Source of the DNA: Candidatus Woesearchaeota archaeon
GTDB lineage: Archaea; Nanobdellota; Nanobdellia; Pacearchaeales; GW2011-AR1
DNA: 64,000 nt
Assembly (NCBI GenBank): GCA_964447315.1
Contig: CAYURQ010000001.1
Coordinates: 27,351-91,350, forward strand
Direction: 5' to 3'
Shown here: positions 721-39,299 of the stretch, one piece after another
Position numbering within the stretch: the stretch's first letter is position 1
Layout: the number at the start of each line of letters is the position of its first letter
The notes under the pieces: generated by a model
The model's input: the letters and a program-made list of their open reading frames with translations, nothing else
Told to the model about the DNA's origin: nothing
Databases searched by the model: none
Made by a program: the position numbers and the translations under genes

Positions 721-3700
721 ATGGCAAGAAATAATCATTTAGTTATGAAGAATTACTTAAAGAATCATTCTTTAGTTGAATCTAATATTACTTCTTTTAA
801 TAATTTTATTGAAAAAAGACTTCAGGAAATTGTAGATGAAATACAAGCCACAATTGATAATGAAGATTTTGAGATTACTTTAGGAAAGATTGAAGTTGGA
901 AATCCAAAAGTTATTGAAGCAGATGGAAGTTATTCTTTTATTACTCCTTCTGAGGCTAGACTTAGAAACTTAACTTATGCTGCTCCTGTTACAATGGAAT
1001 TAACTGTTAAGAAAGATGGGCAAGTAGATTCAGAAGTTGTTGAAATTGGTAAAATGCCTGTTATGGTGAAAAGTAATGTTTGCAATACAAATGGCATGAA
1101 TAGTGATGAACTTGTTGAGAATTATGAAGATCCATTGAATCCTGGAGGGTATTTTATTATTAAAGGAAATGAAAGAGTTATGGTTATGGCTGAAGACTTA
1201 GCAGAAAATCAACCTTTTATTGAAGAAAATAAGAAAGGCGAATTAACTCTTAAAATGTTTTCTTTGAAAGGAACTTACAGAATTCCAGTTACCTTATCAG
1301 AAGATAAAGAAGGAATCTTGAATGTTTCTTTCAGTAGATTTAAGGATTTACCAATTGTTGTTATTCTTAAAGCATTAGGATTGACAAAAGAATCTGATAT
1401 TTCTAAATTAATTGGAAAAGAAACAGATAGTTTAATTGTTAATTTATATGAATTTGTTGATTTAGCAGATAGAGAAGATGCAATGATGTATATTGCTGAA
1501 AAGACAAATTTACAGGGAACAAAGAAAGAAATTTTAGATAGAGTAAAACAAAGAATTGATTCATATTTATTTCCTCATATTGGACAAACTAAAGAAGATA
1601 GAATCAAAAAAGCAACAACCCTTTGTAAATTATTAAAACAATTTTTGATTGCTAAAGATAAACCTGAACTTAGAACAGATAAAGACCATTATGCTAATAA
1701 AAGAGTTAGACTTTCTGGTGATTTACTTGCAACTTTATTTAGAGTTAATTTAGGAATTTTAATTAGAGATATTCAGTATTCCCTTCAAAAATCTTCTAAG
1801 CGTAAGAAATTTTTCTCAATAAAAGTTTTAGCTAAATCAACTTTATTTTCTCATAGAATAGAATCAGCAATTGCAACTGGTTCTTGGACTGGTGAGCGTT
1901 CTGGTATCACTCAAAATATGGATAAAACAAACTATTTAGCGACTATTTCTCAACTTCAGAGAGTTTCAAGTATGCTTCCTGGAGATCAAGAAAATTTTAT
2001 GGCAAGAACATTACATCCAACTCATTATGGAAGATTCTGTCCAATTGAAACTCCAGAAGGTACTGAAATCGGATTACGTAAAAATCTTTCAGTTCTTAGT
2101 AGGGTTTCAACTAGAATTGATATTGATGATGAAAAATTCATGAAAGAATTACATGAGTTGGGAATGGAAAGTGAATCAGATAATCTAGAAGGATACGATG
2201 TTTCACTAAATGGAAAATTTATTGGAACTGTTAAACAAGGAATTAATTTTGTTAAATCTCTTAGGGACAAGAGAAGAGATTCTGGATTGCCAGAGCAAAT
2301 GAATTTTAGACTTGATGAAGGTTTTAGAGTTGTTTCTATTTCAACTGAGCCTGGAAGAGTTTTAAGACCAATGATTATTGTTGATGAAGGAAATCCAAGA
2401 CTAAAGAACGAACATTTAGTTGAAATTGAGCAAGGAGAATTAAACTGGCAAGATTTAGTTAAACAAGGAATTATTGAATATTTAGATGCTTCTGAAGAAG
2501 AAAATTGCTTGATTTCATTATATGAAGAAGAATTAACACCAGAACATACTCATGTAGAAATTGATGTTACTGCTTTATTTGGAGCTGTTACAAGTTTAGT
2601 TCCTTATGGAAATCACGACCAGAGTTCAAGATTGAATAGAGGAAGTAAAACGCAAAAACAGGCACTTGGACTTTACGCTGCTAATTATTTGTGTAGATTA
2701 GATACAGATGTTTCTGTTTTACAATATCCTCAAAAACCAATTGTAAGAAGTTTTGTTTATGACACTTTGAATACCTATCCTGCTGGACAAAATTTAACTG
2801 TTGCAATTATGAGTTATGAAGGATATAATATGGAAGATGCTTTAATATTAAATAAAGGAAGTTTGGATAGGGGAGTGGGAAGAAGTTTTTATTTTAGACC
2901 TTATTCTGCTATTGAAATGAATTATGCTGGTGGATTAAAAGATGAAATTGCATTGCCTGAAAAAGATGCATCAGGTTATAGAACAGAAAAAAGTTATAGA
3001 TTATTAGAAGATGATGGTATTATTTATCCAGAAGCTAATGTTGATGAAGGAGATGTAATTATTGGTAAAATGTCTCCCCCTAAATTCTTGTCAGAAGCTA
3101 GAGAAATTTCAGTAAGAACAAAGAAAGAATCTAGTGTTACAATGAGGCAAGAAGAAAAAGGAATTATTGAATCTGTATTTATTACAGAAGACGATGAAGG
3201 CAATAAAATTGTTCAAGCTAAAACTCGTGATCAAAGAATTCCTGAATTAGGAGATAAATTTGCTACTTCACATGGTCAGAAAGGAGTTATTGGAGAAATT
3301 GTTCCTGAAGATGATGTTCCTTTTACTGCAAATGGGATTAAACCAGATATTATTTTCAATCCACATGGTTTACCAAGTCGTATGACAGTAGGATATTTAC
3401 TTGAATTACTTGCTGGTAAAGTTGGATGTGTTAAAGGAGAAGTTGTTGATGGAACTTCATTCTCTGGAGAAAGTAAATATAATTTAGAACAACAAATGGA
3501 GAAATTAGGATTTAGATTTGATGGTAAAGAAACAATGTATAATGGTATAACTGGAAAGAAAATGAAATCAAAGATTTTTGTTGGGAATTTGTATTATCTT
3601 AAGCTTAAATATATGGTTGGTAATAAGATGCATGGTAGAGCATCTGGTAAAGTTGCACTTTTAACAAGACAACCAATTGAAGGACGTTCTAGGGGTGGAG

Positions 3701-3981
3701 CTTTAAGATTAGGTGAAATGGAACAGCAAGCATTAGTTGCCCATGGTTCTTCATTATTACTTAAGGAAAGATATGATTCAGATAAAGTTGTATTACCAAT
3801 TTGTGCTAAATGCGGAGCAATGGCAGTAGAAGATAAAATACGTAAAAAAATATCTTGTCCAATTTGTGCAAGCGAAACAATAGAACCTGTTGAAGTATCA
3901 TATGCATTCAAGCTTCTTATAGAGGAGTTGCAAGGGTTACATGTAAATACAACTTTTGATTTAAAAAATAAATACGAATAA
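721..3981 (+). CDS. rpoB: DNA-directed RNA polymerase subunit B (Rpo2), unsplit
   Basis: 1086 aa with conserved blocks 'GRFCPIETPEG', 'SHGQKGV', 'NPHGLPSRMTVG', 'MHGRASG' and a C-terminal Cys4 zinc ribbon 'CAKCG...CPIC'. Confidence 0.97.
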   Translation: MARNNHLVMKNYLKNHSLVESNITSFNNFIEKRLQEIVDEIQATIDNEDFEITLGKIEVGNPKVIEADGSYSFITPSEARLRNLTYAAPVTMELTVKKDGQVDSEVVEIGKMPVMVKSNVCNTNGMNSDELVENYEDPLNPGGYFIIKGNERVMVMAEDLAENQPFIEENKKGELTLKMFSLKGTYRIPVTLSEDKEGILNVSFSRFKDLPIVVILKALGLTKESDISKLIGKETDSLIVNLYEFVDLADREDAMMYIAEKTNLQGTKKEILDRVKQRIDSYLFPHIGQTKEDRIKKATTLCKLLKQFLIAKDKPELRTDKDHYANKRVRLSGDLLATLFRVNLGILIRDIQYSLQKSSKRKKFFSIKVLAKSTLFSHRIESAIATGSWTGERSGITQNMDKTNYLATISQLQRVSSMLPGDQENFMARTLHPTHYGRFCPIETPEGTEIGLRKNLSVLSRVSTRIDIDDEKFMKELHELGMESESDNLEGYDVSLNGKFIGTVKQGINFVKSLRDKRRDSGLPEQMNFRLDEGFRVVSISTEPGRVLRPMIIVDEGNPRLKNEHLVEIEQGELNWQDLVKQGIIEYLDASEEENCLISLYEEELTPEHTHVEIDVTALFGAVTSLVPYGNHDQSSRLNRGSKTQKQALGLYAANYLCRLDTDVSVLQYPQKPIVRSFVYDTLNTYPAGQNLTVAIMSYEGYNMEDALILNKGSLDRGVGRSFYFRPYSAIEMNYAGGLKDEIALPEKDASGYRTEKSYRLLEDDGIIYPEANVDEGDVIIGKMSPPKFLSEAREISVRTKKESSVTMRQEEKGIIESVFITEDDEGNKIVQAKTRDQRIPELGDKFATSHGQKGVIGEIVPEDDVPFTANGIKPDIIFNPHGLPSRMTVGYLLELLAGKVGCVKGEVVDGTSFSGESKYNLEQQMEKLGFRFDGKETMYNGITGKKMKSKIFVGNLYYLKLKYMVGNKMHGRASGKVALLTRQPIEGRSRGGALRLGEMEQQALVAHGSSLLLKERYDSDKVVLPICAKCGAMAVEDKIRKKISCPICASETIEPVEVSYAFKLLIEELQGLHVNTTFDLKNKYE

Positions 3982-3982
3982 A

Positions 3983-6900
3983 ATGAACAAGCCAATAAGA
4001 AAAAGAATAAAGAGTTTGAATTTTAGCTTACTTAGCCCTGAGCAAGTTAAGAAATTAAGCTCAGCAAAAATAGTTACTCCTGAACTTTATGATATTGATG
4101 GTTATCCAGTTGATGGAGGGTTAATGGATTTAAGGTTAGGCGCTGTAGACCCTGGTGTTAGATGTAGAACTTGTGGTGGAAGAATTAAGGAATGTTTAGG
4201 ACATCCAGGAAGTATTGACATGGCAAGAGCTGTTATTCACTTGAAATATATTCCTTTAATTGAAATGTGCTTAAGATGTTTTTGCCAAGATTGTGGAAAA
4301 TTAATGCTATCTGAGAAAGATATGGAAAAATATAGTGCAAGTCAAAGAGCTAAGAAAGCAAAAGACTCAAAGAAATGTCCTCATTGTCAAGCTTCTCAGG
4401 AAAAAATGAAGTTAGATAAACCAACAAGTTTTTATAAAGGTAAAACAAGAATTTTTCCAACTGAAATTAGAGAGATGCTTGTTAATATTCCTAATGAAGA
4501 ATTAGAAAAAGTTGGAGTTAATTGTAAAACTTCAAGACCTGAGTGGGCTGTCATTACTTCATTATTAGTTCCGCCTGTAACAGTTAGGCCTAGTATTATC
4601 TTGGAAACAGGAGAACGTTCAGAGGATGATTTAACACATAAACTTTCAGATATTATTAGAGCTAATCAAAGACTTTGGGAAAATTTAAATGCTGGTGCTC
4701 CAGAAGTTATTATTGAGGATTTGTGGGATTTACTGCAATTTCATGTAACAACTTTCTTTGATAATACAGTTACTAGAATTCCACCTGCTAGGCACAGAAG
4801 TGGACAACCACTTAAGACTATAACTGAAAGAATTAAAGGTAAAGAAGGAAGAATTAGAAAAAATATTGCTGGTAAGAGAGTAAATTATTCTGGTAGAACA
4901 GTTATTTCTCCTGATCCATTTATTGGAATTAATGAAGTTGGAGTTCCTTATGAAATTGCAAAAGTAGTTACAGTTGCTGAAACAGTTAATGATTTAAACA
5001 TCAAAAAATTAAAAAAATTGATTCAAAAAGGTAGTGAATATCCTGGTTCTAGTTATGTTATTAGACCAGATGGAAAAAGAAAGAAAGTTACTGAAGAACT
5101 TAAAGAAGAGATAATTTCTGAATTGGCTCCGGGGTATAAAGTTGAAAGACATTTACAAGAAGGAGATGTTGTTTTATTTAATAGGCACCCAAGCCTTCAT
5201 AGAGGAAGTTTAATGGCTCATTTTGTTAGAGTTTTACCTGGTAGAACTTTCCGTATGCATCCTTCTGCTGCTGCACCATATAATGCTGATTACGATGGAG
5301 ATGAAATGAATATTCATAGCCCTCAAAATGAAGAAGCACGTGCAGAAGCTAAAATTTTACTTGATGTTAAAAAAAATTTAATGTCCCCAAAAAATAATAC
5401 TAACTTGGTTGGAAGTATTAAAGATTCTAACACTGGAAATTATTTATTAGGACTAGATGAATTTACTTCAGATGAAGCAAATCAATTATTTTATTATTCT
5501 GGAATTGATGCTTATGCATCAAAGAAACATATAACAGGATTTGAACTATTTTCAGAAATTTTTCCAAAAAGTGTTAATTTCAAGAATGATTCAATCACAA
5601 TAAAAGATGGGGTTGTTGAAAAAGGTGTTATTGATAAAACTACTTTTGGAGATGAAGATGGTGATTTAGTTAAGGTTTTAGATAATACTCTTGGTAGAGA
5701 TGAAACTTTCAAAATTTTAAAGAATGCTTTTGATTTAGGAAAGAATCATATTACTAATAGAGGAATTACAATTTCAGTTAATGATTTGGATTTAAGAAAA
5801 GATGTTATTGAAATGGGTGAAGAGATAATTAAGAAATCAGAAAAGAAAACTCAAGATTTAATTAATTCTTATAATGATGGAACTTTAGAAATTATTCCTG
5901 GTAAAACATTAGAGGAGTCTAGAGAGCTGAAAATTGTTCAGACATTGAATGAAGTAAGAACGAAGATTGGTGAAATTGTTAGGAGAGAATATCCTAAAAC
6001 TAATCCTGTAAATCATATGATTAGATCAGGTGGTGGAGGTAATATACTTAATGTAACTCAGATGGCTTCATGTGTTGGACAGCAAGCATTCATGGGGGGA
6101 AGAATCAATATTGGGTATAATGGAAGAACTTTATCATTATTCAAACCAGGAGATTTAAGTCCTGAAGCTCATGGATTTATTAAAAGTTCTTTTATTAAAG
6201 GATTAAGACCAGATGAATTCTTTTTCCAGGCTGTTACTGGAAGAGACTCACTTATGGATACTGGTTTAAGAACTCCAAAATCAGGCTATTTATATAGGAG
6301 ATTAGCAAATGCTCTTCAAGATTTAAGAGTGGAATATGACGGAACAATTAGAGACAGCAATAATAATATTATTGAATTCTTATTTGGAGATGATGGAATA
6401 GATGTTTCAAAAATGCATACTAAAGGAAAACTTGACAGTGGAGAAGCAATTGGAATTGTTACTGCTCAGAGTTTTGGTGAAAGTTCGACACAGATGGTTC
6501 TTAATACATTCCATATGGCTGGTGTAGCTGAAATGCAGGTTACTTCTGGTTTACCAAGATTAATTGAAATTTTTGATGCTAGAAAAACACCTTCTTCACC
6601 AAAAATGGAAATTTTCTTAAATAAAGAATATAATGATGAGAAAAATGCAAGAATATTTGCTGAAAAAATAAAAGAAATTACCCTTAAAGAAATTGCTTCT
6701 GAGATTAATTTAGATTTTGGAAATAAAAAAATTGAGATTGTTATTGATAAACAAGGATTAAGACAAACACATTCAAGTGTTAAAACAATTGTTGATAGAT
6801 TAAAGGATTTACACTTTAAAGCTAAGGATAAAGGGGATTTAATACAATTAGATGCAGGGGATATGAATTTCAGAGAAATTTATAAACTTAAAGAAAAACT

Positions 6901-7474
6901 TAAAGGCACTTTAATTTCAGGAATTAAAGGAGTAAAGCAAATATTAGTTGTAAAAAGAGATAGAGATTATGTTATTGTGACTCTTGGAACAAATTTAAAA
7001 GAAATTATTCAAATGAAAGAAGTTAATCCTAATAAGTTGATTTCAAATGATTTTTATGAAGTGGCAGATATTTTTGGTATTGAAGCTGCTCATTCTTTGA
7101 TTATCAAAGAAATTTTAGAAGTTCTTAAATCCCAGGGTATTGATATTGATATGAGACACTTAAAGCTTGTTGCAGATGCAATGACAAATACTGGAGAAGT
7201 TAAAGGAGTTACTAGAATGGGAATTATTGCACAAAAATCTTCAATCCTTGCAAGAGCAACATTTGAAACACCTGTTAAACAATTTGTTAATGCATCAATT
7301 AAAGGAAATAAAGATGAATTATCAAGTGTTATTGAAAATATAATTCTTAATCAACCAGTTCCAGTTGGAACAGGATTACCAGGACTTTTAGTTAAGGTAA
7401 CAGGGCCTTTAGTTAAAGATGAAAAAAACAAGAAAAAAGCTGATTCCAAGATTGTAGATATTGTTAATAATTAA
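3983..7474 (+). CDS. rpoA: DNA-directed RNA polymerase largest subunit, A' and A'' parts fused in one ORF (Rpo1)
   Basis: One uninterrupted 1163-aa ORF. It contains the N-terminal zinc motifs, the catalytic 'NADYDGDEMN' (A' part) and the trigger-loop block 'GEAIGIVTAQSFGESSTQMVLNTFHMAGV' (A'' part). It starts 1 nt after the rpoB stop. Confidence 0.95.
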   Translation: MNKPIRKRIKSLNFSLLSPEQVKKLSSAKIVTPELYDIDGYPVDGGLMDLRLGAVDPGVRCRTCGGRIKECLGHPGSIDMARAVIHLKYIPLIEMCLRCFCQDCGKLMLSEKDMEKYSASQRAKKAKDSKKCPHCQASQEKMKLDKPTSFYKGKTRIFPTEIREMLVNIPNEELEKVGVNCKTSRPEWAVITSLLVPPVTVRPSIILETGERSEDDLTHKLSDIIRANQRLWENLNAGAPEVIIEDLWDLLQFHVTTFFDNTVTRIPPARHRSGQPLKTITERIKGKEGRIRKNIAGKRVNYSGRTVISPDPFIGINEVGVPYEIAKVVTVAETVNDLNIKKLKKLIQKGSEYPGSSYVIRPDGKRKKVTEELKEEIISELAPGYKVERHLQEGDVVLFNRHPSLHRGSLMAHFVRVLPGRTFRMHPSAAAPYNADYDGDEMNIHSPQNEEARAEAKILLDVKKNLMSPKNNTNLVGSIKDSNTGNYLLGLDEFTSDEANQLFYYSGIDAYASKKHITGFELFSEIFPKSVNFKNDSITIKDGVVEKGVIDKTTFGDEDGDLVKVLDNTLGRDETFKILKNAFDLGKNHITNRGITISVNDLDLRKDVIEMGEEIIKKSEKKTQDLINSYNDGTLEIIPGKTLEESRELKIVQTLNEVRTKIGEIVRREYPKTNPVNHMIRSGGGGNILNVTQMASCVGQQAFMGGRINIGYNGRTLSLFKPGDLSPEAHGFIKSSFIKGLRPDEFFFQAVTGRDSLMDTGLRTPKSGYLYRRLANALQDLRVEYDGTIRDSNNNIIEFLFGDDGIDVSKMHTKGKLDSGEAIGIVTAQSFGESSTQMVLNTFHMAGVAEMQVTSGLPRLIEIFDARKTPSSPKMEIFLNKEYNDEKNARIFAEKIKEITLKEIASEINLDFGNKKIEIVIDKQGLRQTHSSVKTIVDRLKDLHFKAKDKGDLIQLDAGDMNFREIYKLKEKLKGTLISGIKGVKQILVVKRDRDYVIVTLGTNLKEIIQMKEVNPNKLISNDFYEVADIFGIEAAHSLIIKEILEVLKSQGIDIDMRHLKLVADAMTNTGEVKGVTRMGIIAQKSSILARATFETPVKQFVNASIKGNKDELSSVIENIILNQPVPVGTGLPGLLVKVTGPLVKDEKNKKKADSKIVDIVNN

Positions 7475-19693: not shown

Positions 19694-19787
19694 TTTAAAT
19701 TAAAGGCTTAATTTTTTATTTTTTATTATTGTTATTATTTATTAGTTACAACATATAGAAAGATTTTTAAAGTAAAATTAATTGTAA

Positions 19788-20270
19788 ATGATTAAAATGA
19801 CAATTACAAAAAAAGTATTAGAGAATACATTTGACTTATATGATGAAGTTGGTAAGGATAGAAAGTTGTATCTTTATGCAGAACTAAAAGAAAATAAAGA
19901 AGTTCTTGAAAAAACAAGACAAAAGACAATTCAAAGAATTAATAATTATTTACATAATAAAGAATTAAAACCAGCTGAGAGAGATTATTTGGAAAGTTTA
20001 AAACAAGAATATTCAAAATTAAGACAAAAACCAACATTGAAAACAAAATTAATGGAATTAGATTTTGATGAAAAAATATTAGGAAAAATATGTGCTTTCT
20101 TAAATCAAAAGTATGAAACTAAATCAATAACTCCTGGAAATGTAACTTATTCATACTTAGAAAATATCAGTGAAAAAGAACTTTTAGAAACAAAAGGGTT
20201 TGGATTAAAAAGTGTTCATGAAATAAAGAATATTCTTGAAAAGCGTGGGTTTAAATTAAAGAAAGAATAA
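19788..20270 (+). CDS. hypothetical protein with C-terminal helix-hairpin-helix resembling bacterial RNAP alpha-CTD
   Basis: C-terminus 'SEKELLETKGFGLKSVHEIKNILEKRGFKL' matches the alpha-CTD pattern '..EELL.I.NFGKKSL.EIK..L...GL.L'. Pattern level only. Confidence 0.45.
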   Translation: MIKMTITKKVLENTFDLYDEVGKDRKLYLYAELKENKEVLEKTRQKTIQRINNYLHNKELKPAERDYLESLKQEYSKLRQKPTLKTKLMELDFDEKILGKICAFLNQKYETKSITPGNVTYSYLENISEKELLETKGFGLKSVHEIKNILEKRGFKLKKE

Positions 20271-20271
20271 A

Positions 20272-20820
20272 ATGGTAAAATCAGACAGGAATTATAGTTT
20301 AACTAATGCAAGAAAAACCCTAGGTTTAACTCAGGCACAATTATCTAGTAGATTAGGAATAAAACCAGAAGTATATAACACTTATGAAACTGGGAGTTAT
20401 ATTCCTTCATTAGATACTCAAGTTAGAATAAGTAATTACTTTGTTGATAATGGAGTTCCAGTTATTGAAAGTGATTTGTTTCCTGAAAAAGAAAGAAGCT
20501 TTGAAAAAGAAAAATTCTATGATAAATTTTTTGATGAAAATCTTGCTTTAGATTTTGAAAACAAAGATCATTTTGATAGTTGTCTTGAAAGAATATTAAC
20601 TCCAAGAGCAGGTGTTAAACCCAGGCAAATAGATATTTTAAAAAGATTTTATGGTATTGGTTGTAATCCAGAATCTGTAGAAGAGATTGCAAAAACAGCA
20701 GGAAAAAATGGGCAGAGCATGAGTAAAGCAAGGGTTTACCAAATGATGCAATCTGCAGTTAATAAAATAAGGAGAGATGTTCTCACTGATAAAAAAAAGC
20801 ATTATTTAATTGAGTTTTAA
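20272..20820 (+). CDS. XRE-type HTH (N-terminal) fused to sigma-70 region-4-like HTH (C-terminal)
   Basis: N-terminus 'LTNARKTLGLTQAQLSSRLGI....YNTYETG' is XRE-like. C-terminus 'ILKRFYGIGCNPESVEEIAK.....MSKARVYQMMQSAVNKIRR' parallels region 4.2 'VLRMRFGI....TLEEVGK...VTRERIRQIEAKALRKLR'. It starts 1 nt after the upstream stop. Confidence 0.55.
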   Translation: MVKSDRNYSLTNARKTLGLTQAQLSSRLGIKPEVYNTYETGSYIPSLDTQVRISNYFVDNGVPVIESDLFPEKERSFEKEKFYDKFFDENLALDFENKDHFDSCLERILTPRAGVKPRQIDILKRFYGIGCNPESVEEIAKTAGKNGQSMSKARVYQMMQSAVNKIRRDVLTDKKKHYLIEF

Positions 20821-20906
20821 AAGATGTTTTTACCTTGGATAAAATTAAAAATGATAAGATATGCCTATTTGTTTAGACATTTAGTTACATATTATGAAAA
20901 TTATTC

Positions 20907-20928
20907 ACTATGTGTTAAAACACATAGT
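20907..20928. promoter_or_regulatory. palindrome 'actatgtgtt-aa-aacacatagt' upstream of the surface-protein promoter
   Basis: Perfect 10-bp arms with a 2-nt spacer, about 40 nt upstream of the TATA-like 'aagatttataaatg' (about 20963-20976). Confidence 0.3.
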
Positions 20929-21032
20929 ATATATGATGTCATTATAAAGTTACACTAATAGTAAGATTTATAAATGAAATTTACTCTCAATAAGTATCAG
21001 AAAACAAAGTTTTTCTGAAGAATTAAATAAAA

Positions 21033-31535: not shown

Positions 31536-31832
31536 TTATTCTTCATCTTCCTCAAGAACTAGTAAACTAAGTAAAACAATTAATACTCCTGCTATTATAG
31601 AAATTACCCAGCTTAGCCAACCTAACTCTAGAGTCTTAAACTTAATTATTAAAAAACCTGCAATACCAAGCAATCCTATGAATATATAATCTTTTCGTAT
31701 TTTTTCTTTGATAATTGGGGCGTGTTCTGAAAATACATCAAGAATTCCAGTAACAATTACAACAACCAATAATATATTTAAGTTAAGATAAGTGCTAACA
31801 AGTCCTGCCCATATTTGTTCAATCAATAACAA
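31536..31832 (-). CDS. small membrane protein, 'LGW' family copy 1 (98 aa; TTG start as tracked)
   Basis: Three hydrophobic segments and an acidic tail. Paralogues at 33542, 36225, 38237 and the C-terminal half of 44150..44632. Confidence 0.55.
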   Translation of the reverse strand: MLLIEQIWAGLVSTYLNLNILLVVVIVTGILDVFSEHAPIIKEKIRKDYIFIGLLGIAGFLIIKFKTLELGWLSWVISIIAGVLIVLLSLLVLEEDEE

Positions 31833-31903
31833 TATTAGATAAGTTACTAAGACTGTTTGAAAGATGTGATTTACTAGGGATGCGTTGTGTCTGTGGAAAA
31901 GGG

Positions 31904-31917
31904 AAAAGTTTATAGAA
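31904..31917 (+). promoter_or_regulatory. BRE/TATA-like promoter of 31938 (leaderless geometry)
   Basis: 'aaaagtttatagaa' centred 26 nt before ATG 31938. Duplicate at 36599-36612. Confidence 0.5.
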
Positions 31918-31937
31918 TTTTAAATTATTATTAAAAC

Positions 31938-32324
31938 ATGGAAGAAAGAGATGTAATAATTAAGATTTATGATAAAAAAGAAGAAATTAATAAAATAATT
32001 AAAGAATTAAAAAAATATTCATTTGAAGATTACATTAAAACTGGCCATTATGAAATTTCTTTATTAACTAAAGGAACAGATGAAGATAAATTGAGAGAGA
32101 TTTATCCTAAATTTGATATTATAGAATTAATAGCATTGAGGAGGCATAAAAATGGTTATGAGAATTATGATGTTTATTATGAACTTGAAAAAGGAAATTA
32201 TGCTTTGTTTGCCATAAATCTAGAAGGTAAAAAACCTAAAATAGATAATGCATTTATAGCTAATAGAATATTCAAAAATTTCTTAAAATCTATGGTAAAA
32301 AGATATGGTAATAAAATGGTTTAA
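31938..32324 (+). CDS. hypothetical protein (128 aa), possibly toxin-like
   Basis: No firm motif, only a loose resemblance to small RNase-fold toxins. Convergent with the DUF2283-like gene, overlapping it by 4 nt. Confidence 0.4.
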   Translation: MEERDVIIKIYDKKEEINKIIKELKKYSFEDYIKTGHYEISLLTKGTDEDKLREIYPKFDIIELIALRRHKNGYENYDVYYELEKGNYALFAINLEGKKPKIDNAFIANRIFKNFLKSMVKRYGNKMV

Positions 32325-32656
32325 TTAGTCATGCATTGCATAGGTATATTTGCTATAGGAATTTGTTTTATTCCTGCTTTTTCATCTTCTAATCCCACCC
32401 CAATAAATAATTGATCTCTGCTTGGTTTTACAATAAGATTTAATTTTTCAAAGTCTTTTATTTGTTGTATATTAAACCCTATTGCCTCAAGAAAATTAGA
32501 AAACTCTCTTACTTCTAAACTAACTACTTTTCCGTTTCCAGTAGTGCTAATAATAAAATCTCCAAAGCTAAAATTCTTCTTAACTTTCTCATTATCTTGA
32601 ATAGAAGCCACAATTAAGCTGTCTGTATTCTCATCATATTTAGAGACTTTTATCAT
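32321..32656 (-). CDS. DUF2283-like small protein
   Basis: N-terminal 'MIKVSKYDENTDSLIVAS' fits the DUF2283 'YD.e.D.lyi' pattern. Confidence 0.45.
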   Translation of the reverse strand: MIKVSKYDENTDSLIVASIQDNEKVKKNFSFGDFIISTTGNGKVVSLEVREFSNFLEAIGFNIQQIKDFEKLNLIVKPSRDQLFIGVGLEDEKAGIKQIPIANIPMQCMTN

Positions 32657-32756
32657 ATTTTATAATAATATTTTGTTTATTTATACCTTTCTATTCATCT
32701 TCTAGAGGCAAGTAAAACATATAAATCTTAATAAATAATTAAAACTCCTTTTCTTA

Positions 32757-33545
32757 ATGGGAATTGATTCATCTGAAGCAAATCAAATAATAAACGCTAT
32801 TGATTTTGTAAATCATCATTATGGAGGTTCTGCAAAAGTTACTGGAGAATTCTTTTGTAAAGACTGTAATGAGAAATTTCCTTCTGGAGAATTTCGTTAT
32901 GATAAAGGAGGGTATATTCCAGGGCCAGGTTTAATTAATTTGTCTTCTGAAAGGGCTGCATTTCCCCTTCATGAGTTTCATACTGTTCTTGCTTTAAAAG
33001 ATTCTGATGAGATCTATGAAAAAAGAGTGATTTTAGACTTATTTAATAAATCAAGAAACTGGAATTTTTATGATGTTCCAGAAAGATGCTTTGAGGATTA
33101 TATGAAAATAATGAAAACAAGCTCACTAATTTCTATTGCTAGTCTAGAAGCTAATCATTGGTGTTATTCACTTCATTCAACACCAGATTTTACAGAAGAA
33201 GAAATGCTGGAGGATCCTATTAAAAGGGATATTCTAGAAATGGATAGGAAGATTAATCTTAGGCCAAATAAATTAGAAAATGAGGTTAAACCAGAAATAA
33301 ATCGGGTTTTCAAAGACATAATTGGTAATAGAGAAATTCCAATAATTTATATTATTCCAGAAGAATTTAGAGGAGATTTTGGAGAGGAATATTATAAAAG
33401 GGATTTTATTGAAGCAACATACAATACTTTTAAAGCAAAGAACATACTTTTTCCAGATGAAAAAAGAAATTCTGTTATTAAAATAATTGATTCTTACTTT
33501 AAAGAAGCAGAATTAAAGCATGAAAGACACCCTTCTCCTTTTTAG
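32757..33545 (+). CDS. hypothetical protein (262 aa)
   Basis: Intact ORF with a single 'CKDC' pair and no recognisable domain. Confidence 0.45.
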   Translation: MGIDSSEANQIINAIDFVNHHYGGSAKVTGEFFCKDCNEKFPSGEFRYDKGGYIPGPGLINLSSERAAFPLHEFHTVLALKDSDEIYEKRVILDLFNKSRNWNFYDVPERCFEDYMKIMKTSSLISIASLEANHWCYSLHSTPDFTEEEMLEDPIKRDILEMDRKINLRPNKLENEVKPEINRVFKDIIGNREIPIIYIIPEEFRGDFGEEYYKRDFIEATYNTFKAKNILFPDEKRNSVIKIIDSYFKEAELKHERHPSPF

Positions 33546-33844
33546 GATTCTTCATCCTCTTCTAAAACAAGTAAACTAAGTAAAACAATTAATACTCCTG
33601 CAACAAGAGATATTACCCATGACAACCATCCTAATTCTAGTGTTTTAAACTTGATTATCAGGAAACCTGCAATACCAAGCAATCCTATAAATATGTAATC
33701 TTTAGGTTTTATTTTTTCTTTAATAATTGGAGCGTGTTCTGAAAATACATCAAGAATTCCAGTAACAATTACAACAACTAATAAGATATTTAAGTTAAGA
33801 TAAGTGCTAACAAGTCCTGCCCATATTTGCTCAATTAATAACAA
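33542..33844 (-). CDS. small membrane protein, 'LGW' family copy 2 (100 aa)
   Basis: About 90% identical by eye to 31536..31832. Confidence 0.55.
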   Translation of the reverse strand: MLLIEQIWAGLVSTYLNLNILLVVVIVTGILDVFSEHAPIIKEKIKPKDYIFIGLLGIAGFLIIKFKTLELGWLSWVISLVAGVLIVLLSLLVLEEDEES

Positions 33845-33913
33845 TATTAGATAAGTTACTAAGACTGTTTGAAAGGTGTGATTTACTAGGGATGTGTTGT
33901 GTCCACGGAATAG

Positions 33914-33952
33914 GAGGTGTTGGAGTGAGGGTTTGGGAATGTTGATAGGATT
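33914..33952 (+). repeat. G-rich element, subfamily 2
   Basis: 'gaggtgttggagtgagggtttgggaatgttgataggatt' aligns with 58345-58389 and 59480-59524. Confidence 0.5.
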
Positions 33953-33960
33953 ATTTTAAT

Positions 33961-34602
33961 TTATATAGAAGAATTAATATCTCCATGCACTACTAATGAT
34001 TGATAATTTTCAAATAAGAAAGGGGCATAAAATTGGGCTTCTGGAAAATCTTTAGTTGTACTTAGATACCAAATATTCTCTTCCATTTTATCTTTAGCTC
34101 TTTCAACTGACTTTTCTATAGTAGAACCTTCTATTAATGCTTTAACAAGGATATTTGAGGGTTCTAAAAATAATTTTGCTATTTTATCTCTTCTTGGAGA
34201 TGCCTCCTGATTAGGATCTTTCCCAAGATTAAAATCTCTCTCATATCCAATAAAACAAATGGCTCCTTTAGTAACTATTATCTTCCCTAGTTTTTGTCCT
34301 GATGAACAAGTTAGGGAATAAACAACCATGCCTGAAAGAACTTTTGCATTTTCTTTAGAGATTATTATCTCATTTTTATGCCCAGCAATCAAATCAGGAT
34401 TACCATGCCCATTAAACATAATAAAATCTGGTTTTTGCTTTTTTATAATTTTTAAGATTTCTTTTTTATTTGCTTTTTCTCTTTCCCTATTTATTGTTTT
34501 GTTTCCTCTTTCTTTCGAATATTTAACTAATTCTTTACTATAATAATATAAATAAGAGAGGGTCCCATCATGCTCGGGTCTGGAAAAAATAATATTACTC
34601 AT
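33961..34602 (-). CDS. minimal CHAT/caspase-like (clan CD) cysteine peptidase candidate (213 aa)
   Basis: Strand+His-Gly 'DFIMFNGHG' (His66) and strand+Cys 'VVYSLTCSSG' (Cys99), followed by 'KGAICFIGY', in the order and spacing typical of caspase-fold enzymes. Confidence 0.4.
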   Translation of the reverse strand: MSNIIFSRPEHDGTLSYLYYYSKELVKYSKERGNKTINREREKANKKEILKIIKKQKPDFIMFNGHGNPDLIAGHKNEIIISKENAKVLSGMVVYSLTCSSGQKLGKIIVTKGAICFIGYERDFNLGKDPNQEASPRRDKIAKLFLEPSNILVKALIEGSTIEKSVERAKDKMEENIWYLSTTKDFPEAQFYAPFLFENYQSLVVHGDINSSI

Positions 34603-34604
34603 AA

Positions 34605-34841
34605 TTATTGTTTTACTAAAAAACCTCTTTTGAAAGCTTTAAGATAGTTTAATTGGATTTCAACTATTCTATTTCCAATATCTGTATTATCTTCTATGTT
34701 TTTTATCAACTCATCTCTTTTCATAAATTTTCCATCAGACATTCCAAATGAAACACTTACATTTGGGGAAGCCTGCCTAATTCTTTCTATGACTATTTCT
34801 TTCTTTAACTGATCTATATTCTCTTGTTTATTTTCTTTCAT
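34605..34841 (-). CDS. hypothetical protein (78 aa), middle gene of the operon
   Basis: 2-nt gap to the downstream gene and a 4-nt overlap with the upstream gene. Confidence 0.45.
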   Translation of the reverse strand: MKENKQENIDQLKKEIVIERIRQASPNVSVSFGMSDGKFMKRDELIKNIEDNTDIGNRIVEIQLNYLKAFKRGFLVKQ

Positions 34842-35020
34842 ATTATTTCTAACTCTTTTAGTATTTTTAATATTTTCTCTCCATTTTCTGTCTTATTCTT
34901 TATTTCTTGGTAAGCAAGATTCCAACTTATTGGATTTTTATCTATAATTACTATTGTATTGTTTCTTTCTTTTATAGGCACTCCAGAATAAACTTTAAAG
35001 AAATCTTCTTCATTTACCAT
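34838..35020 (-). CDS. hypothetical protein (60 aa), first gene of the operon
   Basis: Intact ORF coupled to the next gene. Confidence 0.4.
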   Translation of the reverse strand: MVNEEDFFKVYSGVPIKERNNTIVIIDKNPISWNLAYQEIKNKTENGEKILKILKELEII

Positions 35021-35054
35021 TATTAAATTAGTAAATTAATCTTTTTAATTTTTG

Positions 35055-35165
35055 TCATTTCTTTTTCCTCGGCTTATTCCAATAAGGACTTTGGGGTTTC
35101 ATGAAACACTGAAGAGAAAAGGATATTTAAATGCTGTTTTTTGGAGTGTGGGTAAAACAATTCAT
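35055..35165 (-). pseudogene. decayed copy of the small zinc-ribbon gene (compare 46276..46413)
   Basis: It reads 'MNCFTHTPKNSI*ISFSLQCFMKPQSPYWNKPRKKK*'. The tail matches '...CPKCKSPYWNKPKKK' of the intact gene. It has an in-frame TAA and has lost Cys ligands. Confidence 0.55.
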
Positions 35166-35203
35166 CTTAATCTATATATTTTTTAATTAATGATTCTATA
35201 ATT

Positions 35204-35464
35204 TTAATTATACACTTTATCTCTTTTATCAATTTTTACTATCAAAATTATTTTCTGAGCTTCTTTAATTTTATATAATGCTCTAAAGTACCCAATTCTA
35301 TACCTAAAAACCATCTCATTATTATCTCTCCCAATAAACTTTGAATCACTTGGTACAGGAGTATTTTCAAGGTTTTTTAATCTCTTTTCAATCCTTTCTC
35401 TTTCTTTGGTATCTAATTTGTTTAAAAAATCCTGGGCTTTAACAGACAGCTCTACAGAATACAT
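35204..35464 (-). CDS. relE: RelE-family toxin (archaeal type)
   Basis: '...FRYRIGYFRALYKI.....I.IVKI.KRDKVY' is the archaeal RelE pattern. Confidence 0.7.
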   Translation of the reverse strand: MYSVELSVKAQDFLNKLDTKERERIEKRLKNLENTPVPSDSKFIGRDNNEMVFRYRIGYFRALYKIKEAQKIILIVKIDKRDKVYN

Positions 35465-35465
35465 T

Positions 35466-35627
35466 TTACAGTCTCTTTGTTCTGCCTTCTTTTAAATCTT
35501 CTTCAGCTTGATTTAAAGAGTTTATGTCGTCTTGGGTTAGAGTTACATCTATTATGTGCTCCTTTAAAGAATCCATATCTTTTTTTAAATTGTCTAGTTT
35601 ACTTATGATTAATTCTTCGTTTTCCAT
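35466..35627 (-). CDS. relB: RelB-like antitoxin (53 aa, absent from the ORF track)
   Basis: My translation is 'MENEELIISKLDNLKKDMDSLKEHIIDVTLTQDDINSLNQAEEDLKEGRTKRL'. Its stop is 1 nt before the relE ATG. Confidence 0.6.
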   Translation of the reverse strand: MENEELIISKLDNLKKDMDSLKEHIIDVTLTQDDINSLNQAEEDLKEGRTKRL

Positions 35628-35665
35628 ATCTTCCAATATAAAAATAACTATATAATCTTTTCGTA

Positions 35666-35715
35666 TTTTTTATTTTTCATAAGGGGTGTTGGTTGGAGCA
35701 TTTTAGGGAGTATTG
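35666..35715 (+). repeat. G-rich element, subfamily 1 (3'-end remnant of a paralogue of gene 46504)
   Basis: In frame it reads '...FVFFIFHKGCWLEHFREYCKLKKKK*', versus '...FFIFHRGCWLEHFREYYQLNKKK*' in the intact gene. There is no start codon upstream. Confidence 0.6.
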
Positions 35716-36224: not shown

Positions 36225-36527
36225 CTAATCTTGTTGTTCACCTTCTTCTAAAACAAGCAAACTAAGTAAAACAATTAATACTCCTGCTATTATAGAAATT
36301 ACCCAGCTTAGCCAACCTAACTCTAGAGTCTTAAACTTAATTATTAAAAAACCTGCAATACCAAGCAATCCTATGAATATATAATCTTTTCGTATTTTTT
36401 CTTTGATAATTGGGGCGTGTTCTGAAAATACATCAAGAATTCCAGTAACAATTACAACAACCAATAATATATTTAAGTTAAGATAAGTGCTAACAAGTCC
36501 TGCCCATATTTGTTCAATCAATAACAA
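36225..36527 (-). CDS. small membrane protein, 'LGW' family copy 3 (100 aa)
   Basis: Same as 31536..31832 except for the C-terminal tail ('LEEGEQQD' versus 'LEEDEE'). The repeat boundary falls in its 3' end. Confidence 0.55.
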   Translation of the reverse strand: MLLIEQIWAGLVSTYLNLNILLVVVIVTGILDVFSEHAPIIKEKIRKDYIFIGLLGIAGFLIIKFKTLELGWLSWVISIIAGVLIVLLSLLVLEEGEQQD

Positions 36528-36632
36528 TATTAGATAAGTTACTAAGACTGTTTGAAAGATGTGATTTACTAGGGATGCGTTGTGTCTGTGGAAAAGGGAA
36601 AAGTTTATAGAATTTTAAATTATTATTAAAAC

Positions 36633-37019
36633 ATGGAAGAAAGAGATGTAATAATTAAGATTTATGATAAAAAAGAAGAAATTAATAAAATAATTAAAGA
36701 ATTAAAAAAATATTCATTTGAAGATTACATTAAAACTGGCCATTATGAAATTTCTTTATTAACTAAAGGAACAGATGAAGATAAATTGAGAGAGATTTAT
36801 CCTAAATTTGATATTATAGAATTAATAGCATTGAGGAGGCATAAAAATGGTTATGAGAATTATGATGTTTATTATGAACTTGAAAAAGGAAATTATGCTT
36901 TGTTTGCCATAAATCTAGAAGGTAAAAAACCTAAAATAGATAATGCATTTATAGCTAATAGAATATTCAAAAATTTCTTAAAATCTATGGTAAAAAGATA
37001 TGGTAATAAAATGGTTTAA
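36633..37019 (+). CDS. hypothetical protein (128 aa), duplicate of 31938..32324
   Basis: Identical translation. Confidence 0.4.
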   Translation: MEERDVIIKIYDKKEEINKIIKELKKYSFEDYIKTGHYEISLLTKGTDEDKLREIYPKFDIIELIALRRHKNGYENYDVYYELEKGNYALFAINLEGKKPKIDNAFIANRIFKNFLKSMVKRYGNKMV

Positions 37020-37351: not shown

Positions 37352-37451
37352 ATTTTATAATAATATTTTGTTTATTTATACCTTTCTATTCATCTTCTAG
37401 AGGCAAGTAAAACATATAAATCTTAATAAATAATTAAAACTCCTTTTCTTA

Positions 37452-38539: not shown

Positions 38540-38608
38540 TATTAGATAAGTTACTAAGACTGTTTGAAAGGTGTGATTTACTAGGGATGTGTTGTGTCCA
38601 CGGAATAG

Positions 38609-38647
38609 GAGGTGTTGGAGTGAGGGTTTGGGAATGTTGATAGGATT
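38609..38647 (+). repeat. G-rich element, subfamily 2 (duplicate of 33914..33952)
   Basis: Lies within repeat copy 2. Confidence 0.5.
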
Positions 38648-38655
38648 ATTTTAAT

Positions 38656-39297: not shown

Positions 39298-39299
39298 AA

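What the first reader, a model, noticed from the sequence alone, without database searches (positions are those of the whole stretch)
19788..20820. Coupled gene pair with bacterial-type transcription modules: alpha-CTD-like HhH protein plus XRE-HTH/sigma-70 region-4-like protein
Gene 2 (20272..20820) starts 1 nt after gene 1. It combines an N-terminal XRE-type HTH with a C-terminal stretch, 'LTPR....RQIDILKRFYGIGCNPESVEEIAKTAG....MSKARVYQMMQSAVNKIRR'. That stretch lines up block for block with sigma-70 region 4.2 ('LT.RE..VLRMRFGI......TLEEVGK.F.VTRERIRQIEAKALRKLR').

Gene 1 ends in 'SEKELLETKGFGLKSVHEIKNILEKRGFKL'. This is the pattern of the helix-hairpin-helix of the bacterial RNAP alpha C-terminal domain.

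In bacteria, region 4 and alpha-CTD are the two RNAP modules that contact upstream promoter DNA and each other. Finding both as stand-alone neighbours in an archaeon with a TBP/TFB-type promoter architecture is unexpected. They sit between dnaG and the major surface-protein gene. Possible explanations are a horizontally acquired or virus-derived regulator pair, or convergent HTH/HhH usage.
Basis: partly seen in the sequence, partly recalled or inferred. Interest (0 to 1): 0.55.

Follow-up and report, generated by a model that had tools for sequence, protein, structure and literature searches.

The report
Bacterial RNAP-module regulator pair in archaeon
A DPANN archaeon carries two tightly coupled small genes built from pieces normally found only in bacterial RNA polymerase (the sigma-factor region 4 and the alpha-subunit C-terminal domain), most likely reused here as an ordinary DNA-binding regulator pair rather than as polymerase subunits.

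Summary
Two same-strand ORFs (19788-20270 and 20272-20820) lie 1 nt apart between archaeal dnaG and a surface-protein gene, on a DPANN (Woese-/Pacearchaeota-like) chromosome.

Gene 2 is an XRE HTH plus a divergent sigma-70 region 4. Its own Pfam Sigma70_r4 hit is sub-threshold (E=0.05). However, it belongs to a family of at least 47 cluster representatives with the same two-domain layout. Six of nine full-length members tested pass the Pfam threshold, and the family profile matches primary-sigma region 4 in PDB at E=7e-21.

Gene 1 has a helical N-domain plus an alpha-CTD-like domain. It scores 24.8 bits on Pfam (cut-off 23.8), and the family-level hhalign probability is 98.9%. Only the second hairpin is well preserved.

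The pairing recurs in a related archaeon at the same position, and the two modules are fused in two unrelated proteins.

There is no sigma region 2, so gene 2 is not a sigma factor. The slot downstream of dnaG is hypervariable and the pair is patchy and fast-evolving. The best reading is an accessory two-component DNA-binding regulator assembled from bacterial-type modules. Partnership and targets are inferred, not shown. Sigma-70-like genes in DPANN were already reported; the XRE fusion and the alpha-CTD partner appear undescribed.

The parts
19788..20270 (+). Gene 1 (160 aa): helical N-domain plus alpha-CTD-like C-domain
   Evidence: The ORF is listed. Pfam RNA_pol_A_CTD scores 24.8 bits against a gathering score of 23.8. 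The AF2 single-sequence model has pLDDT 77.9.
19788..20042 (+). Gene 1 N-terminal domain (residues 1-85): predicted three-helix bundle of unknown role, possibly oligomerisation
   Evidence: The model has helices at 8-33, 37-57 and 62-76. Fold searches return only generic helical-bundle matches. It is not alignable to the N-terminus of the L084 counterpart.
20043..20267 (+). Gene 1 alpha-CTD-like domain (residues 86-160). The second helix-hairpin-helix (residues 124-159) is well preserved. The first is degenerate, and about 11 residues are inserted between them.
   Evidence: hhalign 96.4% for gene 1 alone, 98.9% for the family; 37.6 bits against a shuffle maximum of 14.4.
20268..20274 (+). Stop/start junction TAA-A-ATG: a 1-nt spacer consistent with co-transcription and translational coupling
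   Evidence: Read directly from the sequence. The same 1-nt spacing separates the two alpha-CTD-like genes in L084.
20272..20820 (+). Gene 2 (182 aa): XRE HTH, disordered linker, sigma-70 region-4-like domain
   Evidence: The AF2 model built on a 13-sequence alignment has pLDDT 77.8. Foldseek's top matches are sigma70/SigA chains and XRE repressors.
20305..20442 (+). XRE/Cro-C1 type HTH (residues 12-57)
   Evidence: Pfam HTH_3 E=5.2e-9, 36.4 bits against a gathering score of 23. pLDDT is above 90.
20461..20487 (+). Family-hallmark motif VIESDLFPE (consensus LEEDLFP) directly after the XRE domain
   Evidence: F70 is invariant in the 13-sequence alignment A1. E66, D68, F70 and P71 are invariant in the 5-sequence alignment A2.
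20545..20814 (+). Sigma-70 region-4-like domain (residues 92-181). It has a 5-residue insertion (GKNGQ, 20701-20715) in the HTH turn. The recognition helix reads SKARVYQMM (20722-20748), where E. coli sigma70 has TRERIRQIE.
19750..19758 (+). AACATATAG, one mismatch from the palindrome half-site, abutting the TATA-like box of gene 1 (AAAGATTTTTAAAG, 19759-19772). Candidate operator (inferred).
20865..20873 (-). AACAAATAG, a further one-mismatch copy of the half-site, 34 bp upstream of the palindrome
20907..20928 (.). Perfect palindrome ACTATGTGTT-AA-AACACATAGT, 86 bp after gene 2 and about 40 bp upstream of the surface-gene TATA box (20966-20975). Candidate operator (inferred).
   Evidence: It is unique in the window. 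No inverted repeat with this half-site was found at the corresponding place in L084, L002 or L006.

Best explanation
Genes 1 and 2 form an accessory, co-transcribed two-protein DNA-binding regulator. It is assembled from bacterial-type modules that have been detached from RNA polymerase.

Gene 2 carries two helix-turn-helix units on a flexible linker. One is an XRE-type HTH, which usually dimerises on palindromic operators. The other is a sigma-70 region-4 HTH whose -35-contacting residues have changed. Gene 2 therefore reads its own bipartite site, not a bacterial -35 element.

Gene 1 supplies an alpha-CTD-like (HhH)2 module, which in bacteria is a minor-groove A/T-DNA binder, on a helical N-domain.

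I infer that the two proteins bind neighbouring DNA and touch each other, as alpha-CTD and sigma region 4 do at bacterial promoters. Together they would modulate TBP/TFB-dependent transcription of their own operon and possibly of the adjacent surface-protein gene.

Shown: the domain identities, the coupling, the recurrence of the pairing, the fusions, and the patchy, fast-evolving accessory status. Inferred: DNA binding, physical partnership, and targets.
For: **Domain identities.**

**A real protein family.** At least 47 X-R4, 5 X-X-R4 and 3 X-R4-R4 cluster representatives were counted among about 155 proteins. Full-length homologues include P0003 (39-40% identity, E=7e-33).

**Archaeal hosts.** Family members sit on contigs with archaeal markers: the window, L082 (archaeal-type DnaG ORF 3356-4507 that aligns closely with the window's, plus an EF-1alpha-like C-terminal fragment), L084 (surface-protein orthologue) and L090 (uS2_euk_arch).

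**The pairing is not accidental.**
- Gene spacing in the window is 1 nt.
- L084/L085 have, in order, a clear alpha-CTD gene (Pfam E=5.6e-11), a gene 1-like alpha-CTD gene, the gene 2 homologue, and the surface-protein orthologue.
- P0134 fuses 3xXRE + Sigma70_r4 + RNA_pol_A_CTD.
- L100 fuses RNA_pol_A_CTD + Sigma70_r4 in the same order as gene 1 then gene 2.

**Not a sigma factor.** No Sigma70_r2 or r3 hit appears, the protein is only 182 aa, and the N-terminus is XRE. Positions equivalent to E. coli R584/E585/R588 vary freely across the family, as expected for regulators with diversified specificities.

**Accessory status.** The dnaG-to-surface-gene gap ranges from 130 bp to 4.3 kb in about 60 related genomes. 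Its contents differ and include toxin-antitoxin pairs. Only L006 (stand-alone r4-like ORF) and L002 (alpha-CTD-like remnant) carry related genes there.

**Fast evolution.** The cassette proteins are 39% and 29% identical between the window and L084, while the flanking surface protein is 65% identical.

**Candidate sites.** Beyond the two palindrome arms, 2 of the 12 other one-mismatch half-site matches in 64 kb fall in the 306 bp of intergenic DNA flanking the cassette. About 0.06 would be expected.
Against: - No experiment or complex model shows that the two proteins bind DNA or each other.
- Gene 2's HTH turn carries a 5-residue insertion that could impair canonical DNA binding.
- Most X-R4 genes sampled elsewhere (L082, L083, L088, L090, L110-L112) have no alpha-CTD-like neighbour. 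The partnership is therefore confined to one sub-branch plus the fusions.
- The site enrichment is post hoc, and the palindrome is absent from L084.
- The surface-gene promoter and leader are conserved in genomes that lack the cassette. That gene therefore does not depend on the pair.
Confidence: 0.55

Rival explanations
1. Remnant or cargo of an integrated mobile element or archaeal virus. On this view the pair is the element's own lysogeny-type or early-gene switch rather than a host regulator.
For: - The fused relative P0134 lies immediately next to a phage-type integrase, HNH and IS605 genes.
- X-R4 genes elsewhere sit among toxin-antitoxin genes: ParE-like and VapB-antitoxin-like genes in L090, HicA in L110, MazE and MntA-like genes in L083.
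- The dnaG-to-surface-gene slot is an insertion hot spot.
- There are weak PHROG hits to phage regulators and to a phage sigma family.
Against: - There is no integrase, no tRNA and no other element gene within the 1.3-kb slot. No flanking direct repeats were looked for.
- GC content (23-29%) matches the neighbouring accessory genes.
- No relatives were found in IMG/VR scans or in 50,697 phage genomes.
Confidence: 0.15
2. A sigma-like recruitment factor. The region-4 domain would dock on the archaeal RNAP flap/dock region, as sigma region 4 docks on the bacterial beta flap. The alpha-CTD-like protein would act as an UP-element reader. Together they would give the archaeal polymerase a bacterial-style upstream promoter-recognition device.
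For: - The family's region 4 is specifically group-1-sigma-like, including the C-terminal RHPSRSKxLRxFL tail in P0023.
- An acidic-L-acidic motif at the position of the alpha-CTD '261 determinant' is kept in gene 1 and both L084 paralogues (the residue numbering is my own knowledge).
- The window encodes an unusual fused RpoA'/A''.
Against: - There is no region 2 or 3, which supply most core affinity in bacteria.
- The equivalent of sigma70 R603, the alpha-CTD contact, is L in gene 2 by my alignment.
- The family is patchy and fast-evolving, unlike a basal factor.
- Recognition-helix residues are not conserved across the family.
Confidence: 0.08
3. A type II toxin-antitoxin or defence-associated pair in which the XRE protein is the antitoxin/regulator and gene 1 is the effector.
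For: - XRE antitoxins such as HigA, HipB and MqsA commonly sit 3' of small partner genes, and there are weak NCBIfam hits to MqsA and HipB-type antitoxins.
- The same genomic slot holds HicAB-, RelE/ParE- and MazEF-like pairs in other genomes.
- The L100 fusion lies beside a Vsr-like gene and gives weak PADLOC hits.
Against: - Gene 1 has no toxin-like domain. Its only recognisable domain is a DNA-binding alpha-CTD.
- PADLOC gives only weak XRE-type hits for gene 2 and nothing meaningful for gene 1.
Confidence: 0.05
4. Chance or convergent resemblance: generic HTH and HhH motifs that merely look like sigma region 4 and alpha-CTD.
For: - Gene 2's own Pfam Sigma70_r4 score is below threshold (E=0.051).
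- Gene 1 matches only half of the alpha-CTD model and just clears the cut-off.
- All single-sequence PDB matches to alpha-CTD have E of 0.05 or higher.
- Sigma-r4-type annotations are common in archaeal LuxR/Bat/Tfx regulators (PMC5413776).
Against: - Transitive and profile evidence is strong: plus the shuffle controls.
- The 60 best PDB matches shown for the family profile are all SigA/RpoD/SigB/RpoS-type chains, not ECF sigmas or LuxR-type proteins.
Confidence: 0.03

Closest known systems
Region 4 (4.1/4.2) of group-1 bacterial sigma factors (RpoD/SigA; Pfam PF04545)
   Same: The family profile aligns over about 80 residues with region 4 of SigA/RpoD at E=7e-21. The predicted domain has four helices. 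The conserved R and Q of the recognition helix are kept, and one member keeps the C-terminal RHPSRSKxLRxFL tail.
   Different: It is detached from regions 1-3 and fused to an XRE HTH. It sits in archaea, which have no bacterial-type core enzyme. The window's copy has a 5-residue insertion in the HTH turn and K/A/Y where sigma70 has R584/E585/R588. Its own Pfam score is below the gathering threshold.
C-terminal domain of the bacterial RNAP alpha subunit (alpha-CTD; Pfam PF03118)
   Same: The second HhH and the C-terminal helix are about 50% identical to alpha-CTD consensus. The equivalents of G296, K298, S299 and E302 are present by my numbering. The upstream paralogue in L084 keeps the equivalents of R265, N268 and C269.
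   Different: It is a stand-alone protein with an unrelated helical N-domain instead of the alpha N-terminal domain. About 11 residues are inserted between the hairpins. The first hairpin is degenerate in gene 1. The fold was not confirmed by structure search.
Sigma-70-classified protein family fam00359 reported in DPANN, especially Woesearchaeota (Castelle et al. 2021, PMC8204110)
   Same: It concerns the same lineages and the same puzzle: a bacterial-type sigma signature alongside TBP/TFB/TFE, with no anti-sigma factors and an unclear mechanism.
   Different: The passages I searched describe no domain architecture. I found no mention there of an XRE fusion, a missing region 2 or an alpha-CTD partner. 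I could not establish whether fam00359 is this family, because the family id was absent from the two supplements held as text.
XRE/Cro-C1 family repressors and antitoxins (HTH_3)
   Same: The N-terminal domain is a confident HTH_3. Foldseek matches include a lambda-repressor-like protein (28tn) and CylR2 at TM 0.8 normalised to the target.
   Different: It carries a second, sigma-type HTH instead of the usual dimerisation, sensor or peptidase domain. The family-specific LEEDLFP motif follows the HTH.
Non-RpoA proteins that carry alpha-CTD domains (bacterial TPR + 2x alpha-CTD proteins; the P0134 and L100 fusions with Sigma70_r4)
   Same: They show that alpha-CTD is used as a portable module outside RNAP, and specifically together with sigma region 4.
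   Different: These are single polypeptides from other organisms. P0134 sits in an integrase-bearing element. L100 is a protein of at least 757 aa beside a Vsr-like gene. In the window the modules are split over two coupled genes.

Membership tests
Pfam Sigma70_r4 (PF04545) domain | Score at or above the curated gathering threshold (24.1 bits) | tested here: not met
   Gene 2 scores 13.5 bits, E=0.051. Six full-length homologues score 26-58 bits.
Pfam Sigma70_r4 (PF04545) domain | Profile-level homology to region 4 of bona fide sigma factors | tested here: met
   The family profile matches PDB SigA/RpoD region 4 at E=7e-21. Gene 2's C-terminus scores 23.2 bits (E=3e-9, one target) against a bacterial RpoD r4 HMM, with a shuffle maximum of 7.6 bits.
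Pfam Sigma70_r4 (PF04545) domain | Canonical tight HTH turn and -35-contact residues (E. coli R584, E585, R588, Q589) | tested here: not met
   There is a 5-residue insertion (GKNGQ) in the turn. The residues are K, A, Y and Q, so only Q is kept (alignment; E. coli numbering from my own knowledge).
Sigma-70 family sigma factor (functional RNAP subunit) | Region 2 (core binding, -10 recognition and melting), with or without region 3 | tested here: not met
   No Sigma70_r2 or r3 hit appears. Residues 1-72 are an XRE HTH and the protein is only 182 aa. TIGR02937 is sub-threshold at E=0.018.
Sigma-70 family sigma factor (functional RNAP subunit) | Binding to RNAP core (beta flap / beta' coiled coil) | not testable with these tools
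   The organism has an archaeal RNAP. No interaction assay or complex model was possible.
Pfam RNA_pol_A_CTD (PF03118) domain | Score at or above the gathering threshold (23.8 bits) | tested here: met
   Gene 1 scores 24.8 bits, E=1.8e-5. This is marginal and covers model positions 35-67 only. L084:1-234 scores 42.5 bits.
Pfam RNA_pol_A_CTD (PF03118) domain | Two helix-hairpin-helix motifs forming the (HhH)2 fold | tested here: inconclusive
Pfam RNA_pol_A_CTD (PF03118) domain | DNA-contact residues (E. coli R265, N268, C269, G296, K298, S299) | tested here: inconclusive
   Gene 1 has K, G, K at the first three positions and G, K, S at the last three. The second hairpin is kept and the first is altered (alignments; numbering from my own knowledge).
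Bacterial RNAP alpha subunit (RpoA) | Alpha N-terminal dimerisation/assembly domain linked to the CTD | tested here: not met
   RpoA equivalog models match only residues ~122-159, at 17-22 bits against cut-offs above 227. The N-domain is an unrelated helical bundle.
XRE / Cro-C1 HTH (Pfam HTH_3) | Score at or above the gathering threshold (23 bits) | tested here: met
   36.4 bits, E=5.2e-9, residues 12-57. pLDDT is above 90.
Type II toxin-antitoxin module | A recognisable toxin partner next to the XRE antitoxin | tested here: not met
   Gene 1 has no toxin-family hit in Pfam, NCBIfam, PHROGs or PADLOC.

The most novel reading that the evidence does not exclude
Alpha-CTD and sigma region 4 form an ancient, portable two-module device that works independently of bacterial RNAP. 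In some DPANN archaea the pair would contact each other on DNA. In the boldest version, the region-4 module would dock on the archaeal RNAP near the flap/dock. That would graft a bacterial-style upstream promoter-recognition system (UP-element reader plus -35-type reader) onto a TBP/TFB-driven polymerase. It would also explain the unexplained 'sigma-70' genes of DPANN.
Probability: 0.1. Interest if true: 0.85.

Novelty: new variant of a known kind. Interest (0 to 1): 0.5.

Why it matters
Sigma-70-like genes in DPANN archaea have been reported as an unexplained oddity (PMC8204110). This locus suggests that at least part of that signal is not sigma factors. It would instead be a sizeable family of two-HTH regulators (XRE + region 4) that lack the core-binding region 2.

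In one branch, this family travels with alpha-CTD-like genes. Alpha-CTD and region 4 contact each other at bacterial promoters. Here they recur as neighbours in two archaea and as fusions in two unrelated proteins. That suggests their partnership is a self-contained functional unit that evolution can move between contexts and even between domains of life.

This gives a concrete, testable system (two small proteins and about 300 bp of flanking DNA) for asking how bacterial transcription parts are re-wired in an archaeal TBP/TFB setting.

Tried and rejected
**Searches and tests that led nowhere**
- Word-indexed homology searches with either single protein returned only the query itself. Cluster look-up gave no names.
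- The search for related loci with the 13-sequence alignment failed because no conserved stretch was available. With a 5-sequence alignment it found nothing in metagenome or viral contigs.
- Viral scans with a sigma-like subfamily alignment returned only an XRE-only hit (L107). A viral scan with P0134 returned nothing.
- tblastn of both proteins against 50,697 phage genomes gave no match.
- Rfam and tRNA scans of the window were empty.
- PADLOC gave only weak XRE hits.
- The supplements of PMC8204110 held as text do not contain fam00359.
- Five contig look-ups (P0050, P0023, P0018, P0044, P0011) hit contigs of 1.5 kb or less with little context.

**Ideas rejected**
- Convergence or chance resemblance.
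- A true sigma factor, because there is no region 2.
- A true RpoA fragment, because there is no N-terminal domain and the organism has an archaeal RNAP.
- A toxin-antitoxin module, because there is no toxin domain.
- Recent foreign acquisition judged from composition, because GC matches the neighbours.
- The surface gene depending on the cassette, because its promoter and leader are conserved in genomes that lack the cassette.
Full report
**Observation**

Gene 1 is 19788-20270 (160 aa) and gene 2 is 20272-20820 (182 aa). Both are on the + strand, separated by a single A after the TAA stop.

The host is archaeal. The window encodes RpoB, a fused RpoA'/A'', aEF-2, EF-1alpha and an archaeal DnaG. 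A scan of species-representative genomes with DnaG returned 80 loci. Nearly all are titled Woese-, Pace- or Nanoarchaeota MAGs, and the best is 81% identical.

**Gene 2**

Pfam gives a solid XRE HTH (HTH_3, E=5e-9, residues 12-57). The Sigma70_r4 hit is only sub-threshold (E=0.051, 13.5 bits against a cut-off of 24.1). NCBIfam and PHROGs give similarly weak sigma signals. Word-indexed search found only the protein itself.

The exhaustive HMMER search found 285 proteins at E<=1e-3, including full-length relatives such as P0003 (39-40% identical, E=7e-33). I aligned 12 of these with gene 2 (A1).

Of the nine full-length two-domain homologues scanned, six pass Pfam Sigma70_r4 at 26-58 bits. The family profile matches region 4 of primary sigma factors in PDB at E=7e-21 over profile positions ~100-178. 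The 60 best matches shown are all SigA/RpoD/SigB/RpoS-type chains, and none is an ECF sigma or a LuxR-type protein.

To avoid circularity I built two further HMMs. One used family C-termini without gene 2 and P0003. The other used only 113 bacterial RpoD C-termini. Gene 2's C-terminus scores 47.4 and 23.2 bits against them. The best of 2000 shuffles scores 8.3 and 7.6 bits.

AlphaFold2 with the 13-sequence alignment gives pLDDT 77.8. The model has a confident XRE domain, a disordered linker (74-90) and a four-helix C-domain. Foldseek's top matches are sigma70/SigA chains and small XRE repressors.

Gene 2 is therefore XRE + sigma region 4. It has no region 2 or 3, so it is not a sigma factor.

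Its HTH differs from the canonical one. It has a 5-residue insertion in the turn, shared with P0003. The recognition helix reads SKARVYQMM where E. coli sigma70 has TRERIRQIE. Across the family, the positions of R584, E585 and R588 vary freely while R586 and Q589 are mostly kept (E. coli numbering is my own knowledge). That is the pattern expected of regulators with diversified DNA specificity.

A census of the exhaustive hits counts 47 X-R4, 5 X-X-R4, 3 X-R4-R4, one stand-alone R4 and one X-X-X-R4-alphaCTD. The rest are multi-XRE proteins.

**Gene 1**

Pfam RNA_pol_A_CTD is just above threshold (24.8 against 23.8 bits, E=1.8e-5), but the hit covers only the second half of the model. Twenty-eight of the 33 single-sequence PDB matches are alpha-CTDs, with E between 0.05 and 1.6.

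A related contig (L084/L085) carries two alpha-CTD-like genes. The upstream one is a clear alpha-CTD (Pfam E=5.6e-11) that keeps R, N and C at the positions of E. coli R265, N268 and C269.

hhalign of the three-sequence gene 1-like alignment against a 31-sequence alpha-CTD alignment gives 98.9% probability and E=1e-17 over the whole domain. About 11 residues are inserted between the hairpins. Gene 1 alone gives 96.4% and E=1e-9, over residues 118-157. In a shuffle control gene 1's C-terminus scores 37.6 bits and the best shuffle scores 14.4.

**Do the two belong together?**

In the window they are 1 nt apart.

In L084/L085 the order is alpha-CTD gene, gene 1-like gene (1 nt later), gene 2 homologue P0003 (10 nt later), then the orthologue of the window's surface protein. 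This is the same cassette in the same slot of a related archaeon.

P0134 fuses three XRE HTHs, Sigma70_r4 (E=3.5e-13) and RNA_pol_A_CTD (E=1e-19) in one chain. It lies next to a phage-type integrase, HNH and IS605 genes.

L100 is a 27%-GC metagenomic contig. It encodes RNA_pol_A_CTD (E=1e-14) followed by Sigma70_r4 (E=1.2e-12) and about 550 uncharacterised residues, beside a Vsr-like gene.

On the other side, X-R4 genes in L082, L083, L088, L090 and L110-L112 have no alpha-CTD-like neighbour. The partnership is therefore restricted to one branch plus the fusions.

**Genomic setting**

The order dnaG, gap, surface protein, then SMC on the opposite strand is conserved in about 60 related genomes. 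The gap itself ranges from 130 bp with no gene to 4.3 kb. Its contents vary: a ~260-aa family, a ~150-aa membrane protein, and HicAB-, RelE/ParE- and MazEF-like pairs.

Only L006 (a 96-aa stand-alone r4-like ORF) and L002 (a 69-aa alpha-CTD-like remnant beside an assembly gap) carry related genes there.

Between the window and L084 the surface protein is 65% identical. Gene 2 is 39% identical, and gene 1 is 29% identical over the C-domain only. GC content does not mark the cassette as foreign.

Family members occur on archaeal contigs. L082 encodes an archaeal-type DnaG ORF that aligns closely with the window's, an EF-1alpha-like C-terminal fragment and the TPR-like neighbour. L090 has uS2_euk_arch. 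All sampled X-R4 contigs are 27-43% GC. No relatives were found in viral or phage collections.

**Candidate DNA sites**

The palindrome ACTATGTGTT-AA-AACACATAGT (20907-20928) is unique in the window. It lies about 40 bp upstream of the surface-gene TATA box.

One-mismatch copies of its half-site lie at 20865-20873 and at 19750-19758. The latter abuts gene 1's TATA-like box. Of the 12 such copies in 64 kb outside the palindrome, 2 fall in the 306 bp flanking the cassette, where about 0.06 would be expected. This is post hoc and only suggestive.

L084 lacks the motif, as expected if specificity differs. The surface gene's own promoter and leader hairpin are conserved with or without the cassette.

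**Interpretation**

The best-supported reading is an accessory, co-transcribed DNA-binding regulator pair built from bacterial-type modules. Gene 2 is a dual-HTH protein and gene 1 is an (HhH)2 partner. Together they may reproduce on DNA the alpha-CTD/region-4 contact known from bacterial promoters. They would act on their own promoter and perhaps on the neighbouring surface-protein gene.

Domain identities, coupling, recurrence and fusions are shown. DNA binding, physical contact and targets are inferred.

The rivals are mobile-element cargo, a sigma-like RNAP recruitment factor, a toxin-antitoxin pair and chance resemblance. They are weighed in the rival explanations.

**Novelty**

Sigma-70-classified genes in DPANN, especially Woesearchaeota, were reported without a mechanism (PMC8204110). 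Sigma-r4-type annotations in archaeal LuxR/Bat/Tfx regulators are also known (PMC5413776).

My literature searches found no description of the XRE + region-4 architecture, of the absence of region 2, or of the association with alpha-CTD-like genes and fusions. I rate this a new variant of a known kind, of moderate interest.

Noticed in passing
window 20966-21032, and the equivalent positions upstream of the surface-protein gene in about 60 loci (L002-L080): The surface-protein gene has a strongly conserved TATA box (AAAGTTTATAAA). About 20 nt further on lies a hairpin or palindrome (window 20997-21018, TCAGAAAACAAAGTTTTTCTGA), followed by AATTAAATAAAAATG. The stem shows apparent compensatory variants across genomes (GTAGAAA/TTTCTAC, GGAAAC/GTTTCC, CAGAAGAC/GTCTTCTG, CAAAAAAC/GTTTTTTG). 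It could be a conserved leader RNA hairpin or a start-site-proximal operator. It is present with or without the cassette.
   Followed up: partly
window 31536-35715 and 36231-40410: There is a 4,180-bp direct repeat, 99.8% identical, with copies starting 4,695 bp apart. It carries duplicated 262-aa and 213-aa ORFs. A ~355-bp repeat family (89% identical) lies at 31538-31891, 33547-33903, 36234-36586 and 38242-38598. Another ~270-bp pair lies at 56237-56508 and 58033-58302. This may be a real tandem duplication or an assembly artefact.
   Followed up: partly
window 3983-7474: RNAP subunits A' and A'' are encoded as one 1,163-aa ORF. Residues 4-820 match A' and residues 808-1132 match A''. From my own knowledge, most archaea encode these as two separate genes.
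   Followed up: no
gap between dnaG and the surface-protein gene in L002-L081 (window 19694-21032): This slot is hypervariable, from 130 bp to 4.3 kb. Recurrent occupants are a ~260-aa family (25 loci) and a ~150-aa membrane protein (15 loci). There are also HicAB-, RelE/ParE- and MazEF-like pairs and many singletons.
   Followed up: partly
proteins P0004, P0006, P0010, P0012 and others from the exhaustive search: There are many proteins made of tandem XRE HTH repeats. P0004 has up to 11 copies in 1,002 aa. About 90 of the best ~155 hits are of this type. Their hosts are unknown.
   Followed up: no
L092-L096, L098, L099, L101-L106: Proteins of 310-450 aa from GC-rich (47-65%), presumably bacterial, metagenomic contigs combine a TPR-like N-terminal region (judged by eye) with two tandem alpha-CTD domains. 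They show that alpha-CTD is used outside RpoA.
   Followed up: no
L100 2-2275 (MDSW01032854.1): A protein of at least 757 aa has alpha-CTD + Sigma70_r4 at its N-terminus and about 550 uncharacterised residues after it. A Vsr-like endonuclease gene follows. There are weak PADLOC hits to MzaA, BrxP and PglW models.
   Followed up: partly
L002 2920-3081: The closest relative's copy of the slot contains a run of Ns (an assembly gap) immediately upstream of the alpha-CTD-like remnant ORF. Whether L002 once carried a full gene 1-like gene cannot be judged.
   Followed up: no
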